From the NCBI RefSeq assembly GCF_053078305.1, contig NZ_CP166879.1: a stretch of 64,000 nt of DNA; one strand, given 5' to 3'. The position numbers are program-made. Below, in pieces: positions 30,001-36,000 of this stretch (position 1 is its first letter; every line of letters starts with the position of its first letter).

Positions 30001-33000
30001 ATCAGTTTTCCTCTCATACCGTATTTACCTTTTTACGGACATGGAAAGCCTTTTCTGCCTCATCCCACCGGGCATGGTGTGTTGGCGGAATAATCATTAT
30101 GTGCCAGCCATCTCTGGTTGTTATCCGGCAGAAAAATTCACCGCTATATAACACAATGGCCTGCTGAATGAGCGCATCAGCCGCCCGTTCAACCGGATGT
30201 CTTTTATCAAAAAAGCAGATGATTTTTCGACATAACCACCGGGTAATAACAAATGCGCCGAAAAAGGATGTGATATATAAGCACCAGAACAACAGAGAAC
30301 TATTGTCCATTATCTTTCTCCTTATTCACTCTTCTGCGGCATTCGGCACAGTCATCAGGGCTTTCAAATGTATCCGGCTCGCGATTATGAGCCAGATATA
30401 ACCACCGTCCACATATACTGATATTTTCGCCTGTTTTAAAAAAATGATGCTTCCTGGCCATTAGTGGCCGCGCCCATCCAGCGGGTAGACTATTCATTTG
30501 CTTTATCCTCCATACTGGAGAGAATCATATGTATTAATGTCGGGCGTGGAGATATACGCATTTCATTAAGCGTCTGAAGGGCAGCAACAGCTGCCTGTTT
30601 ATCGGTGCCTTTGGCAATTTCAGCAAGAGAATGCACAATCCATAACGGGCTTAACGCTACGGCTGAATGCAGAATCATGTCATCCATAATAATTTCTGGC
30701 ATATCCCGTTTGTCACATTCTTTATCCATAAAAGAAACAATTTTTTCTGCATCTTCCGGTTTCATGCCTCCGGCGATGAGAATTTTACGATATTCATAAG
30801 ACGATCTTAATTCAATACTCATCATTCACCTGCCTGTTTAATCAGTTTCCAGTGCTTTGCTACGGGCAACAGCCTCACACTCAAAAAATACCGACTCCGG
30901 CACACGTTCTTTTAATTCACGAACAAGGAAGTTATTAACGCGCTCGTGACATCTTATATTTCTTTCCTTTTCCTCCTGGCGTAATACAGCAAGGCGGTAT
31001 TCAACAGTCCGGCGTTGTTTCTGAAAGACAGCCAGTGCTTTTCTGGCAGAGTTACGCCATGTATCATCACCACAGGGTGCGTATTCAAGCTGAAATTTAA
31101 TCTCTTCAATGGTTTCTTTTATTTTTGCCAGCAAGCTAAGACAGTCGCTGATTGTCTTCAGTTTTTCATTATCAATATAACTTCTCACGCATTCACCTCC
31201 CGTCATTCCGGTAAAGCTGAAATATGGCACCAGTGCGTCACCTGTCCGTCCTCATCTTCAAGGCAGGCTCCGGTTTCTTCATCAATAAAAAAGCCTTCAT
31301 ACCCCATATGGCCGATGCGCAGTTCCTGTTGGTCACCATACTGAACAATCAGCACGACTGCCTCCATATCAGGCGGAAATGCGTCATCCAGTGAATGCCA
31401 GGGATAACCGCGCAAATCCCCGAAATAAACACCGGTCAGCGTTCCGCCACAAACCGGCATTCCGGCGGCACATACCAGAGGCTCGTCTGATTCAACAAAT
31501 AATGTCGTTATCATGGCATTAACTCCCGTAATACAACATCTTCGGCAGTCCGGCGATGGTGATAAATAAAATTCACCGTACTCTCGGATAATTCAAATTT
31601 CTCGCCTATTTCCCGGAAGGTAATACGTCGTGGCGATTCAGCATCCCGTAATTCACGAATAAGACGAACATCATCGTCAGGTATACGGGTGAAGGGCAGC
31701 AATTCACCACACTTTTTTAAGCTGACGCCAGTCACTCGTGCCCGGCAGCGGATGCTGTCATGATGTCGCCCGAGATACTCCCCCATTTGCCTGCTGGTCA
31801 TCGTTCTGGCATTTTTTCGGATAAATTTATCTTCATCAGGTTTAAATCTGGGGCGTTTGCATTTGAGCAACTCCGGGTAAGTACCGCGTAATAAAACAAT
31901 CCGGTTATATACACCCCAGAAACTTCTTTTTACCCTGACAGCAATATCCTTAACCGGGGTGGATGGATAAAGCGCAATCAGCAGTGCATCTTCTTCAGGT
32001 GTCCATGCACGAACATGAGCGGGTGCACGGCCTTTTCGTCCCATGGGTTGTAATATCATCATGCATCACCCCCTGACTCGCTTTTCGGCAGCATAAAACT
32101 CATCAGACAGAATTTCGGTCATTTTCCGTTTTGCGGAATCATCTTCGCACTGAAGGTAAATAACATTGTCAACGCAGAACCACTTAACGGGGCCAAACAG
32201 TATTGCCGAGAAGTCAATGCCCAGCCAGAACAACAGCGCATCGGTTCTGGCATACGTGACGGGCGAATATTCACGCCACAGACTGTTCAGTTCATCAGAG
32301 GCAACACGCAGGGTTTTAGGTATACGTGATGTGCGCGGCGTGCAGCTCCAGCCATTCGACGCAGTCGGTTTTCTCCATAAGTCGCGATGAAAAGGATATT
32401 TGTCATCCATAAAGCGCAGCCCCTTAAAACAAAATCCACTGATACCGGATACAAATACCGGGCGGCACGCAACATTCAGCACAGCCTCAAGGCGTTTTGC
32501 CTCATCTTTTACCGTCTGGCAGTCCTGCTGGTATTTTTGCCACGCAGCCAGCGCGGAAGGGTTTGAAGTTTTAAAGAACATTACGCCACCTCCGCAGAAA
32601 TCGCGGCCGGTGCCGCTGTCCGGTCAACAATCAGGTAACGCAGAACGCGCGAGGTGATATTCCGGCCGCTTAAACCGCAGATAATGACGCCCAGGCGGAT
32701 GTCGATATACGCCATCACAAACTGGGGCACGCCTTCTTTCATGGCCTGCTCATCAACTTCAGCCACCACATAAACGGTTTCACAGGTCAGAACGCCCTGA
32801 GCAAATTCCCACGCCATCGACGGAATATCATGCCCCTCAATCCACGGCAGGGACTTTCTGAAGCTGCACCACTGAACATCATCAGCCGCACATTCCTGGC
32901 TGCATTTGCGACGAACCGGCTGCACCGGGCGGGGACGCGGAATATCATAAAAACCGTTACATTCCGTCAGCACGCCTGCATCAACCGCATCACGCAGAAA

Positions 33001-36000
33001 ATAAACCATGGAGGATAGCGGCATATTCATTTTTTCTGCCAGAGAACGACTGGTCAGACGGCCAGAAAAACGCAGCCAGCTTTTAACCCCTTCAAGCACT
33101 TTTGCATCAATCATGATTTATTTCCCCACCACATTATTAATGACGATATAAACGTATTTCATATTTCTTAACCCTTATTTTCTGTTTTCAGGCGCAAGCA
33201 GTCCCCTGACGCAAGCGCCATAATTAAAACGATGTGATATTTAAAGATTTAATGCGGTGTTATTTATTCAGTCCGGCGTCCTGTTCAAAAGGCTCGACAT
33301 GAAAACTTTCAGCGCCTTTATTCACCTTAATACCAGCAATCCCTTTCACCGCATCCGGCTCCGCCAGGACAGCTTGCTTATTCACTTCCTCTTTCGTGCG
33401 GATGAAGCGCTCAAGCCCCATACGACGCAGCATTTCAATCACACCTTCCACATCACGACTGACGCTGCATGATGGATTTCCCAGCCGCCATGACACCGTT
33501 CCGGTGGTCAGATTGGCAGTTTTGGTTTCGCCGCCGTTCGTCAGCTCATTGCGGTTGGTTTTACACCAGTCATGAATCCCTTTAAAAAGCACTTTGATTT
33601 CTTTTTTAAGGTTTTCAATCTGCGGCGTATAACGGGCGGTGATTTCTGCCACTTCATCATTCATCGCCGTTTCCAGGCGCAGCGCCTCTCGCTGAATATC
33701 ACCCAGAGTGCGGATATCGCGGCTGACTTCTTCGCGGGTCTGTGGTGCGGCCTCGGCTGCGGCCTTTAATTTTGTAACACGTTTAACCATTTTGTTTTCC
33801 TTATTGCAGTGCGCCTGATGCTTTATGCACACGGTGGCGTTTAATGATGGCATCCGCCCCAAAAGCCTGTACAGATGCCTGAAATTCCGCTGAGAGAAGC
33901 TGAATAATTGCAGGACTGTGATACTGGAGAATACTTGCATAAACGTCACAGAGTGACGTCGGGCTGTTCTCCGTATCACGTTCTGTTTTCACATCCACTC
34001 CAATCTTTTCATGCACTTCAACACAGTCATTGCCTGCCAGCTTTTCGTCATGCGAAACATGCTCAAATTCAAAAATAACGCGTACTTTGCTCATGGAATT
34101 ACCCCTGCTGATTAAATTCATTACCGTTAATAACCCCGGAAGCCATACCCCTGTCTTTCATGAATGCACTGGCTTTCATTGCCACAAGCTCTGCGAAGTT
34201 TCTGCTTTCTGCCAGCATAACCACCCCAAAAATCATGGCGGGTCCATTATCTTTCTTCTTTATTCCGGTTGAACGTATATCCAGACTTACCCCTCTGTGC
34301 GTGCTGCCATCAGAGTTTTTGCAGATAACATCTTCCTTGTATTCGAAAATAATGCGTACGACTTTACTCATCCTCTGGCTCTCGTTTTGTTCGGATAACT
34401 GACCCGGCGTCTGACCTGATGACAGAGCCGAACCATGAAGCAACTTCATACTTCCCAGTAAACCGTGCATCCGCTTATGCGGGTGGCTTTCACACGGCGG
34501 CGCAGGCCGTTGGTCTTAACGGTGATTTCAATTTCCTCACCACTCCCCTGAACCTCGCCTACCGGCGGCGTGGTTTTCAGTGCAAAACGTTGCGGATAGC
34601 GCTTACTGCGTTCCAGTACCGCACCGGCAAGCTCGGTCAGGCGACGTGCGCTGTTCAGGGAGTCGAATAAATTCATTTTTTTACCGCTGGATTGCATATT
34701 CATATAACACCTCGTTTAACTGATTTGTTCAGCACCGATAAAACGGCAAATATTGCTGTAAGTTTCTGTCGCACCTTCGCGATCAAGTCCAACAGATATT
34801 GCCATTCGGGTGCGATCATTAAATTCAAAGAGTAAATCGCCACATTCTTCACTGTCAGACATGGAGACTGCTTTGACGTTATCGAAATTAACCAGGTAAA
34901 AGCGTCCGTAAATATCAGGAATATTAAATACCGCCATAATCACACCTGTGAAAGTAATTCAGGGTTGGTGTAAACCTCTTTAAAGGCCGCATTAATATGT
35001 TTTTCTGTCAGCGCCGCGCCTTCACCGCTGGCGGTGAGCCACGCCTGGTTAAGCGTATGTGTCAGAACGCGTAACGCCCCCGGCTTTTCAGCGATAGCCT
35101 GCATGACGGCCAGCTCGGCCTCACCACTGATCCCCCACGCCCTGGCAATGGCCAGCACATCCGCCTTTTTGGCCTTGCGAAGTTGTTTTGTACGGGCAAG
35201 ACGGCTGAACAGGCGCGATAAATCATCAAAGGCGCGGCGTCCACCTTTAAACAATCCGCGCGGGTTACCAATAAGTACCATCCCGATCCCCGTGGCGTCC
35301 TGAATTGCCCGGAGTTGTTCCAGACCGTCAATACCAAGATGATCTGCTTCGTCAACAATCACCAGTCCACGTGTTCCCGTCAGGCGACGGCGGATGGCGC
35401 GGGATAATGCCCCTTTGTTCGCGCGGGTGTAATCAATCCCCAGCGCATCGGCCAGCTCCAGCAAACACTCCGTGACGCTGGAGTGCGCGGGCGACAGGGT
35501 GATCATCCAGGTGTTCGGTTGCTCCTGACAGTAATTACGGGCCGTGGCCGTTTTACCCACACCCGGTACGCCCACAATGACGTTAATACAGCCCATCAGG
35601 CGAACCGCCTGAAACAGTGCGCGCAGCTCCTGGACTGTCTGCGTTTCAACAAACTGTGGCGGCTCGGGCAGTGCGCTTTGTTTATTCCAGTTCTCATACC
35701 AGGAACGCAGGGAAGCAGCCACAGCAGCGTTATCGCCTTTATATTTTCCCTTACGGAAAGCCGATAATGTGCCGTCGGAAATTCCCGCCTCTCTGGCGAT
35801 GGCATACTGCGTCAGTACGCCGCCATCAATAAGTTCATCAATGGTCTTGATTACATCGTTAATATCAGTCATATTATTAACCTCTCATTTGATACCTTGT
35901 TTAATCAAATAACCTGAGTCGCCGCTCGGGTTATTTTTTTATTTCAGGCCAGCGGGTCATTTTCTTTTAATTTCGCTTCCAGCAACTGCAATCCCCGCTG

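What the first reader, a model, noticed from the sequence alone, without database searches (positions are those of the whole stretch)
31511..33114. Three mid-sized early proteins of unknown function, two with DNA-binding-like segments
ORFs of 183, 171 and 177 aa upstream of gam have no recognisable Mu counterparts by eye. One shows a Myb/SANT-like WTPEEDALL segment plus an HTH-like C-terminus, and another has a winged-helix-like N-terminus. They may be accessory regulators or host-takeover proteins.
Basis: inference. Interest (0 to 1): 0.25.

Follow-up and report, generated by a model that had tools for sequence, protein, structure and literature searches.

The report
Mu gp11, gp12 and D5-like genes
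These are three real, back-to-back early genes of a Mu-like prophage in E. coli: two are direct counterparts of phage Mu genes 11 and 12 (function still unknown), and the third is a DNA-binding protein related to Mu gene 9 and to the phage T5 D5 protein, so the finding is mostly ordinary.

Summary
The three ORFs exist exactly as described, on the minus strand. They are tightly packed, under purifying selection (dN/dS 0.22-0.25), and lie downstream of gam in the early operon of an E. coli Mu-like prophage.

The claim "no Mu counterparts" is wrong.
- The 177-aa protein is a full-length ortholog of Mu gp11 (65.5% identity; Pfam Gp11_C, E 2e-39). Its model shows an N-terminal winged helix and a beta-rich C-terminal domain.
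- The 183-aa protein is not in Mu at this position, but residues 66-166 are homologous to the whole of Mu gp9/E8. It consists of two Myb-like repeats plus a third HTH, is very basic (pI 10.1), and aligns collinearly with phage T5 D5, a DNA-binding protein needed for replication and late transcription.
- Homologs of the 183-aa protein lie directly before the replication initiator gene A in P2-like prophages.

The suggested regulator or host-takeover roles remain untested. These are new members of catalogued, uncharacterised families, and interest is low to moderate.

The parts
32581..33114 (-). Ortholog of phage Mu gp11 (177 aa), a two-domain protein
   Evidence: tblastn gives 65.5% identity over 100% of the length to Mu Mup11. 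Pfam PF25754 Gp11_C E 2.4e-39. phrog_1949 E 1e-99. dN/dS 0.22.
32944..33114 (-). gp11 N-terminal winged helix-turn-helix (residues 1-57)
32614..32847 (-). gp11 C-terminal beta-rich domain (Gp11_C, residues 90-167), acidic (pI 4.6)
   Evidence: Pfam PF25754 covers residues 90-167. Block pLDDT in this domain is mostly 80-92, with a dip at residues 107-111. The domain also occurs as a stand-alone phage protein family, phrog_24761. No solved relative by sequence profile. pI.
32066..32581 (-). Ortholog of phage Mu gp12 / E13 (171 aa), a single-domain alpha/beta protein of a phage-wide family
31511..32062 (-). D5-like / Mu gp9-like DNA-binding protein (183 aa, pI 10.1) made of three tandem helix-turn-helix modules
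   Evidence: phrog_323 E 2e-56. hhalign to T5 D5: probability 96.6%, E 5.5e-10, 145 columns. The family profile hits only gp9 among 22 Mu early proteins, 41.9 bits. dN/dS 0.24. pI.
31865..32023 (-). Module 1 of the 183-aa protein: Myb/SANT-like repeat (residues 14-66, contains WTPEEDALL)
   Evidence: Aligns to c-Myb repeats. Homologous to module 2 by hhalign, probability 98.1%, E 9e-14. This module is absent from Mu gp9.
31700..31864 (-). Module 2: second Myb-like repeat (residues 67-121)
   Evidence: hhalign against module 1. Aligns to the second Myb repeat of 1h88 and to Mu gp9 residues 5-54.
31529..31699 (-). Module 3: C-terminal HTH (residues 122-178), sigma-70 region 4 / AsnC-type
   Evidence: Pfam HTH_AsnC-type covers residues 131-163, E 1.4e-4. 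14 of 20 homologs hit HTH_AsnC and 11 of 20 hit Sigma70_r4. Aligns to Mu gp9 residues 58-95 and T5 D5 residues 205-231.
33260..33790 (-). gam (context): the Mu Gam-like gene immediately upstream in the operon
   Evidence: phrog_491 E 1e-66. The E. coli counterpart is annotated as a Gam family protein.
31203..31514 (-). Next gene in the operon (103 aa, phrog_6925, unknown function); its start overlaps the stop of the 183-aa gene

Best explanation
The three ORFs are consecutive, tightly packed genes of the early operon (the 'semi-essential early' region between gam and gemA) of a Mu-like prophage in an E. coli chromosome.

Shown:
(1) The 177-aa gene is the Mu gp11 ortholog. It has an N-terminal winged helix, a disordered linker and an acidic beta-rich C-terminal domain.
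(2) The 171-aa gene is the Mu gp12 ortholog. It is a compact alpha/beta protein from a family spread over many phage types, always in early or DNA-metabolism gene blocks. Its predicted fold has no solved relative.
(3) The 183-aa gene belongs to the same family as phage T5 D5 and Mu gp9. It has two homologous Myb-type repeats followed by a third HTH, and is strongly basic.

Inferred mechanism:
- The 183-aa protein binds duplex DNA, probably with each tri-helical module contacting the DNA as in c-Myb R2R3. Like T5 D5, it would act as an accessory DNA-binding factor of the replication and early-to-late programme, not as the phage's master regulator. Its position next to replication genes in T5 and next to the initiator gene A in P2-like prophages fits this.
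- gp11 most likely tethers its C-terminal domain to nucleic acid through the winged helix.
- gp11 and gp12 are co-translated (conserved 1-nt stop/start overlap), but gp12 works autonomously in other phages. Its molecular activity is unresolved. My best guess is a non-enzymatic binding protein that supports phage DNA metabolism.
For: Gene identity. Synteny with Mu and with E. coli Mu-like prophages: (41 of 44 Mu-like loci show gp12 followed at fixed spacing by the 183-aa homolog, and gp11 is detected upstream wherever the contig extends far enough). Real coding genes: dN/dS 0.22-0.25 and about 0.24 in a divergent allele. Coupled junctions. gp11 architecture. gp12 fold and spread. Composition of the 183-aa protein. 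Basic charge. Homology to Mu gp9. Homology to T5 D5. D5 is annotated as a DNA-binding protein required for replication and late transcription, and bioRxiv 10.64898/2026.07.11.737809 describes it as an HTH DNA-binding protein that is toxic on its own. Replication-gene neighbourhood: D5 lies between ligase B and the DnaB-like helicase in T5. In P2-like prophages the homolog overlaps the start of gene A by 4 nt, and the order Dam, homolog, gpA recurs in 22 of 23 P2-like loci.
Against: No experiment or binding site supports any function here. The window's 183-aa protein is itself below Pfam's curated cut-offs for Myb (15.2 against 24.4 bits) and HTH_AsnC (22.1 against 27); the support comes from the family level. 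It lacks the first ~70 residues of D5, and Mu gp9 lacks module 1, so functions need not be conserved. The 68 surveyed loci include many near-identical prophages, so the counts are not independent, and synteny with gpA may reflect one P2-like lineage. The gp11 model is only moderate (mean pLDDT 67.7). gp12 has no informative structural or sequence relative, so its role is a guess. Its neighbours in other phages share nothing with gp11 or with each other.
Confidence: 0.6

Rival explanations
1. One reading: the 183-aa protein and gp11 are sequence-specific transcription regulators. They would switch particular phage or host promoters on or off during the early phase.
For: Both carry HTH-type DNA-binding domains. 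PHROGs files phrog_323 under 'transcription regulation'. NCBI names homologs 'AsnC family protein' or 'SANT/Myb domain-containing protein'. T5 D5 is needed for late transcription. Distinct alleles of the 183-aa gene sit in otherwise similar prophages, as one might expect for regulators with different site specificities.
Against: The 'AsnC family' name rests on a sub-threshold HTH match only, and no AsnC ligand-binding (RAM) domain is present. Mu's known regulators (c, Ner, Mor, C) have counterparts in this prophage lineage, and the region is called semi-essential (PMC4553209). No candidate operator repeats or promoters stand out in the region. The gene's recurrent position is beside replication genes, not beside promoters or immunity regions.
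Confidence: 0.25
2. One reading: these are host-takeover or counter-defence proteins. One or more of the three (especially gp12) would bind and neutralise a host protein or defence system instead of acting on phage DNA.
For: They are accessory, non-essential early genes. The gp12 family is spread across unrelated phages as a stand-alone gene without fixed neighbours, a pattern typical of counter-defence genes. The gp12 fold has no known relative. The 183-aa gene is a mosaic hot spot. T5 D5 is sensed by a type IX retron and is toxic to the host on its own.
Confidence: 0.13
3. The ORFs are chance open frames or decayed pseudogenes in a defective prophage.
For: ORF lists are purely mechanical. 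Many E. coli prophages are defective.
Against: The reading frames are full-length and conserved in Mu, D108, SfMu, Yersinia Mu-like phages and hundreds of prophages. dN/dS is 0.22-0.25. Start/stop coupling is conserved. The structure prediction for gp12 is confident.
Confidence: 0.01

Closest known systems
Phage Mu gp11 (Mup11, formerly E10-E12; Pfam PF25754 Gp11_C; phrog_1949)
   Same: Full-length collinear ortholog at 65.5% identity. Same position directly after gam, with the same ~100-150 nt gap before it. Same 1-nt stop/start overlap with gp12.
   Different: Only sequence divergence. Neither protein has an assigned function.
Phage Mu gp12 (Mup12, formerly E13; phrog_2314; PF26885 on homologs)
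   Same: Full-length ortholog at 51.5% identity in the same position after gp11.
   Different: The last ~5 residues differ in length. Mu follows gp12 with gp13/gp14/gp15, which have no counterpart here.
Phage Mu gp9 (Mup09, formerly E8, 99 aa; phrog_323)
   Same: Homologous over modules 2 and 3: 32% identity, BLASTP E 2e-10, profile score 41.9 bits covering gp9 residues 5-95. Same PHROG.
   Different: gp9 has two modules and the window protein has three (an extra N-terminal Myb-like repeat plus a conserved N-terminal arm). gp9 lies just upstream of gam in Mu. This gene lies after gp12, and this prophage has no gp9-like gene upstream of gam.
Phage T5 D5 protein (T5.118, 255 aa), a DNA-binding protein required for replication and late transcription and a trigger of type IX retron-Kva2
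   Same: Same PHROG (323). All three modules are collinear, including the W-T-P-E-x-E motif: hhalign probability 96.6%, E 5.5e-10, 30% identity over 145 columns. Both are encoded beside replication genes.
   Different: D5 has ~70 extra N-terminal and ~20 extra C-terminal residues and is near-neutral (pI 6.3 against 10.1). T5 is a virulent siphovirus. No functional data exist for the Mu-like protein.
Eukaryotic c-Myb R2R3 DNA-binding domain (PDB 1h88, 1mse)
   Same: Two consecutive tri-helical repeats with the W-x-x-E-E-D start. The family profile matches R2R3 across residues 19-107, E 1.4e-5.
   Different: The similarity is weak. The regularly spaced tryptophan triad of Myb repeats is not kept. 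The third module is a bacterial-type HTH. No evolutionary link is claimed beyond the shared fold class.

Membership tests
Mu gp11 family (Pfam PF25754 Gp11_C) | Match to the Gp11_C model above Pfam's curated cut-off | tested here: met
   134 bits against a cut-off of 27, residues 90-167 covering profile positions 1-78 of 78
Mu gp11 family (Pfam PF25754 Gp11_C) | Full-length collinearity with Mu Mup11 and the same position after gam | tested here: met
   100% coverage at 65.5% identity. Gene order gam-gp11-gp12 in Mu and in the window.
Mu gp12 family (phrog_2314 / PF26885) | Full-length profile match and collinearity with Mu Mup12 | tested here: met
   phrog_2314 E 1.3e-81, residues 1-170 against profile 2-169 of 173. 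99% coverage at 51.5% identity to Mu.
Mu gp12 family (phrog_2314 / PF26885) | Direct match to the Pfam PF26885 model | not testable with these tools
   PF26885 is not in the local Pfam copy: no hit. All 46 homologs carry the precomputed accession.
D5-like DNA-binding proteins (phrog_323; T5 D5, Mu gp9) | Significant match to the phrog_323 profile | tested here: met
   E 2e-56, residues 2-182 against profile 80-256 of 319. T5 D5 scores 1.2e-71 and Mu gp9 5.2e-29 against the same profile.
D5-like DNA-binding proteins (phrog_323; T5 D5, Mu gp9) | Collinear alignment of the HTH modules with T5 D5 | tested here: met
   hhalign probability 96.6%; family positions 17-168 align to D5 71-232. Module-level hits in D5 at 72-104, 132-175 and 205-231.
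D5-like DNA-binding proteins (phrog_323; T5 D5, Mu gp9) | The D5 N-terminal region (residues 1-70) | tested here: not met
   The alignment starts at D5 residue 71. The window protein has only a 16-residue conserved arm before module 1.
D5-like DNA-binding proteins (phrog_323; T5 D5, Mu gp9) | Duplex-DNA binding and a requirement for replication or late transcription | not testable with these tools
   Known for T5 D5 only from the record's note and the preprint. Needs experiments.
Myb/SANT domain (Pfam PF00249) | Score above Pfam's gathering threshold | tested here: not met
   The window protein scores 15.2 bits against 24.4, covering only residues 19-31. However, 17 of 20 homologs match at E<=0.01, best 6.3e-9, and the family profile hits c-Myb R2R3 at E 1.4e-5. 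So it is Myb-like in fold class but not a certified Pfam member.
AsnC/Lrp family regulators (the name NCBI gives homologs) | N-terminal HTH_AsnC plus a C-terminal AsnC_trans_reg (RAM) ligand-binding domain | tested here: not met
   Only a sub-threshold HTH_AsnC-type match at the C-terminus (22.1 against 27 bits), and no RAM domain hit. The database name is misleading.
Winged-helix DNA-binding domains (gp11 N-terminus) | H1-H2-H3 followed by a beta-hairpin wing, with structural similarity to known winged helices | tested here: met

The most novel reading that the evidence does not exclude
D5-like tandem-HTH proteins (T5 D5, Mu gp9, this 183-aa protein and its P2-like relatives) would form one pan-phage class of replication-coupled DNA-binding factors whose HTH surface is what type IX retrons, and perhaps other defences, sense. 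On this reading, the allele replacement seen at this one gene in otherwise near-identical Mu-like prophages reflects escape from such sensing. Separately, gp12 would represent a fold not yet seen in solved structures, with a conserved role in early phage DNA metabolism.
Probability: 0.1. Interest if true: 0.55.

Novelty: new member of a known kind. Interest (0 to 1): 0.25.

Why it matters
It matters little for the window itself. These are catalogued, conserved hypothetical early genes of Mu-like prophages, and near-identical proteins are already in public databases (97%, 91% and 95% identity).

Three modest points have wider use:
1. Mu gp9 and a common prophage protein that NCBI mislabels 'AsnC family' belong with T5 D5. 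A 2026 preprint identifies D5 as a retron trigger, so temperate-phage homologs become obvious candidates to test against type IX retrons.
2. The recurrent placement of this family beside replication genes (T5 replisome cluster, P2-like gene A) gives a testable hint for one of Mu's unassigned 'semi-essential early' functions.
3. gp12 is a widespread phage family whose model is very confident yet has no solved structural relative, which makes it a reasonable target for structure determination.

Tried and rejected
- NCBIfam and PADLOC scans of the three proteins found nothing.
- Sequence searches of the PDB with the single proteins and with the gp11 and gp12 profiles found nothing meaningful. The one gp12-profile hit, an engrailed construct at E 0.0013, covers a short stretch and I regard it as chance.
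- A BLAST self-comparison for internal repeats in the 183-aa protein was uninformative because my test segments overlapped. Profile-profile comparison resolved it.
- tblastn of Mu early proteins against the window missed the gp9 relationship. A profile search recovered it.
- The Foldseek search of gp12 against afdb50 could not be run because that library was unavailable. BFVD gave only uncharacterised phage proteins.
- I tested whether gp12-family genes in non-Mu phages carry a gp11-like winged-helix gene just upstream. They do not: the neighbours match neither gp11 nor each other.
- I tested whether T5 D5's first 70 residues are a fourth repeat. This was not significant.
- An Rfam scan and promoter/terminator scans of 30500-34500 on both strands found no RNA family and a promoter count at chance. 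Terminator-like sites were 10 against 4.4 +/- 2.1 expected, but none lies between the three genes on their coding strand.
- The RNA fold of the gam-gp11 gap gave z -1.86 with no U-tract, which is not significant.
- Four literature searches for Mu gp9/gp11/gp12 or the Pfam accessions returned nothing relevant. One apparent hit was 'phage mutagenesis' matching 'phage mu'.
- Positive selection as the cause of the divergent 183-aa alleles is rejected: dS rises together with dN and dN/dS stays near 0.24.
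Full report
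**What is at the coordinates.** The window carries a complete Mu-like prophage on the minus strand. It contains MuA (35944-38034), MuB (34940-35872), a Kil-like gene, gam (33260-33790), GemA (29508-30017), Mor (29013-29438) and an endolysin. The prophage sits in an E. coli chromosome: the flank at 44000-48000 matches the uvrC-uvrY-pgsA region at 99.7%. The three ORFs of the finding are exactly where stated, all on the minus strand: 32581-33114 (177 aa), 32066-32581 (171 aa) and 31511-32062 (183 aa). In the direction of transcription they follow gam; they are 'upstream' only in plus-strand numbering.

The genes are tightly packed. There is a TAATG stop/start overlap at 32581, a 3-nt spacer with an AGGGGG Shine-Dalgarno before the 183-aa gene, and an ATGA overlap with the next ORF at 31511-31514. 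Against the closest complete E. coli genome copy (94.7% DNA identity), dN/dS is 0.22, 0.25 and 0.24. They are real protein-coding genes, not chance frames.

**The 177-aa protein is Mu gp11.** tblastn aligns it end to end with Mu Mup11 at 65.5% identity, and similarly with D108, SfMu and Yersinia Mu-like phages. Pfam's 'Phage Mu Gp11 C-terminal domain' matches residues 90-167 at 134 bits. In Mu the gene has the same position after gam and the same single-base overlap with gp12. More than 200 homolog clusters exist, all from E. coli or Salmonella prophages and all unnamed.

**The 171-aa protein is Mu gp12 (E13).** It aligns over 99% of its length with Mup12 at 51.5% identity and matches phrog_2314 at E 1e-81. 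Homologs carry the Pfam accession PF26885, which is newer than the local Pfam copy. An exhaustive profile search found 179 clusters at 50% identity, nearly all 165-190 aa. tblastn finds members in Klebsiella, Vibrio and Acinetobacter phages that are not Mu-like.

In other phages the gene always lies in early or DNA-metabolism blocks: next to transposase/B, Bet, ligase, helicase or dUTPase. It has no fixed neighbour and no gp11 there. The small ORFs flanking it are unrelated to gp11 and to each other. Its activity is unresolved. Nearly invariant positions are W69, P82, R83, G121, E156, I157, E161 and A165.

**The 183-aa protein is a D5-like, gp9-like triple-HTH protein.** Mu has nothing homologous at this position, and gp13, gp14 and gp15 have no counterpart in the window. 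However, residues 66-166 align with the whole of Mu gp9/E8 (32% identity, E 2e-10). A profile of 20 homologs picks out only gp9 among Mu's 22 early proteins (41.9 bits). This prophage has no gp9-like gene upstream of gam.

Profile-profile comparison shows that residues 14-66 and 67-121 are homologous repeats (probability 98.1%, E 9e-14). Residues 122-178 form a more diverged HTH. Seventeen of 20 homologs hit Pfam Myb_DNA-binding, 14 hit HTH_AsnC-type and 11 hit Sigma70_r4. The family profile matches c-Myb R2R3 across residues 19-107 (E 1.4e-5). The window protein itself is below Pfam's curated thresholds. It also has no AsnC ligand-binding domain, so the NCBI name 'AsnC family protein' is misleading. 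It is strongly basic (pI 10.1).

The PHROG it falls in (323, 'transcriptional regulator, D5-like') also contains Mu gp9 and phage T5 D5. The family profile aligns collinearly with D5 residues 71-232 through all three modules (probability 96.6%, E 5.5e-10). The T5 record describes D5 as a DNA-binding protein required for DNA replication and late transcription. A July 2026 preprint (bioRxiv 10.64898/2026.07.11.737809) reports that D5 is an HTH protein, is toxic on its own, and is the natural trigger of a type IX retron by binding its msDNA. One escaper carries a stop at W74, the tryptophan that aligns with W20 of the protein studied here.

**Context of the 183-aa family.** I classified 68 loci. 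Sixty-three came from IMG/VR and five from earlier look-ups, and many are near-identical, so the counts are not independent.
- 44 loci are Mu-like, and 41 of those show gp12 followed at fixed spacing by the homolog. gp11 is detected upstream wherever the contig extends far enough.
- 23 loci are P2-like. There the homolog lies between a Dam-type methyltransferase (present in 22 of 23) and the replication initiator gene A.
- Gene calls show a 4-nt overlap with gene A in Salmonella and Citrobacter prophages.
- In T5, D5 lies between ligase B and the DnaB-like helicase.

The family is thus an accessory early gene shared among Mu-like, P2-like and T5-like phages, and it is repeatedly placed beside replication genes.

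The gene is also a mosaic hot spot. In prophages whose gp11, gp12 and the following gene are 89-98% identical to the window's, the 183-aa protein is only 73-74% identical. Both dS (0.63) and dN (0.15) are raised 3-5-fold while dN/dS is unchanged at about 0.24. That pattern indicates allele replacement under purifying selection, with no sign of positive selection.

**How it most likely works.**
- Shown: the gene identities, the domain composition, the operon structure, purifying selection, and the family relationships.
- Inferred for the 183-aa protein: it binds duplex DNA through tandem tri-helical modules and serves, like D5, as an accessory factor of replication and the early-to-late switch. 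I put DNA binding at about 0.75 and this particular role at about 0.35.
- Inferred for gp11: it uses its winged helix to bind nucleic acid and carries a C-terminal domain of unknown activity.
- Inferred for gp12: it is co-translated with gp11 in Mu-like phages but works autonomously elsewhere, and I can offer only a low-confidence guess that it is a non-enzymatic binding protein in early DNA metabolism.
- Rivals: classical sequence-specific regulators (0.25), host-takeover or counter-defence proteins (0.13), and non-genes (0.01).

[quoted passage not shown] Whether any of the unassigned ones (arm, cim) map to gp9, gp11 or gp12 is a lead from memory that I could not test.

**Both strands and surroundings.** There is no Rfam family in 30500-34500. 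Promoter-like sites are at chance, and the terminator-like sites are weak, with none lying between the three genes on their coding strand. The 145-nt gam-gp11 gap folds no better than shuffles (z -1.86). Plus-strand ORFs inside the region are short and unsupported.

**Verdict.** The statement that these proteins lack Mu counterparts is wrong. They are new members of catalogued but uncharacterised phage families. The most useful outcome is the link of the third protein, and of Mu gp9, to T5 D5. Interest is 0.25.

Noticed in passing
window 3800-5413 (+): A 537-aa ORF is an IS66-family transposase with all four IS66 Pfam domains (DDE_Tnp_IS66 E 3e-95). It lies near the far end of the prophage.
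   Followed up: partly
window 31511-32062 compared with L033-L051 (for example L046 6001-6549): The 183-aa gene is a mosaic hot spot. It is 73-74% identical at protein level, with dS 0.63, in prophages whose flanking gp11, gp12 and 103-aa genes are 89-98% identical (dS 0.14-0.29). Divergence peaks in the 3' part that encodes module 3, at 65-68% nucleotide identity.
   Followed up: yes
L009, L010, L012, L013, L056-L076: In P2/186-like prophages of Salmonella and Citrobacter, the homolog of the 183-aa protein always lies between a Dam-type methyltransferase and the replication initiator gene A, often overlapping the start of A by 4 nt. Separately, residues 12-114 of the query hit mycobacteriophage regions annotated as DNA methylase or HNH endonuclease.
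   Followed up: partly
window 30014-31514 and 33801-34943 (-): All the other small early ORFs have PHROG families of unknown function but no Pfam family: five between the 183-aa gene and gemA, and several between MuB and gam. Mu gp6, gp7, gp8, gp13, gp14, gp15 and gp18-20 have no detectable counterpart here. The accessory early gene set therefore differs largely from Mu, even though gam, gp11, gp12 and gemA are conserved.
   Followed up: partly
window 33260-33979 (-): The mechanical ORF for gam starts at an upstream GTG (239 aa). The Gam profile and the E. coli annotation fit the internal ATG at 33790 (176 aa). Some related prophages carry about 500 bp of extra DNA, with an additional small ORF, between gam and gp11.
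   Followed up: partly
window 30500-34500: Terminator-like hairpins are about twice as frequent as in shuffles (10 against 4.4 +/- 2.1). Six of the ten are on the plus strand, antisense to the operon.
   Followed up: no
L014 (IMGVR_UViG_2617271340_000022): An IMG/VR viral contig is 100% identical at protein level across MuA, MuB, gam, gp11, gp12, the 183-aa gene, the 103-aa gene and gemA. It probably comes from the same or a near-identical strain. The best complete E. coli genome copy is only 94.7% identical over this 2.1 kb.
   Followed up: no
literature: PMC8624392 (Yersinia phage phiR2-01): The D5 homolog of a T5-like Yersinia phage was detected by mass spectrometry among the major virion-associated proteins, unlike in T5. 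This is odd for a replication and transcription factor.
   Followed up: no
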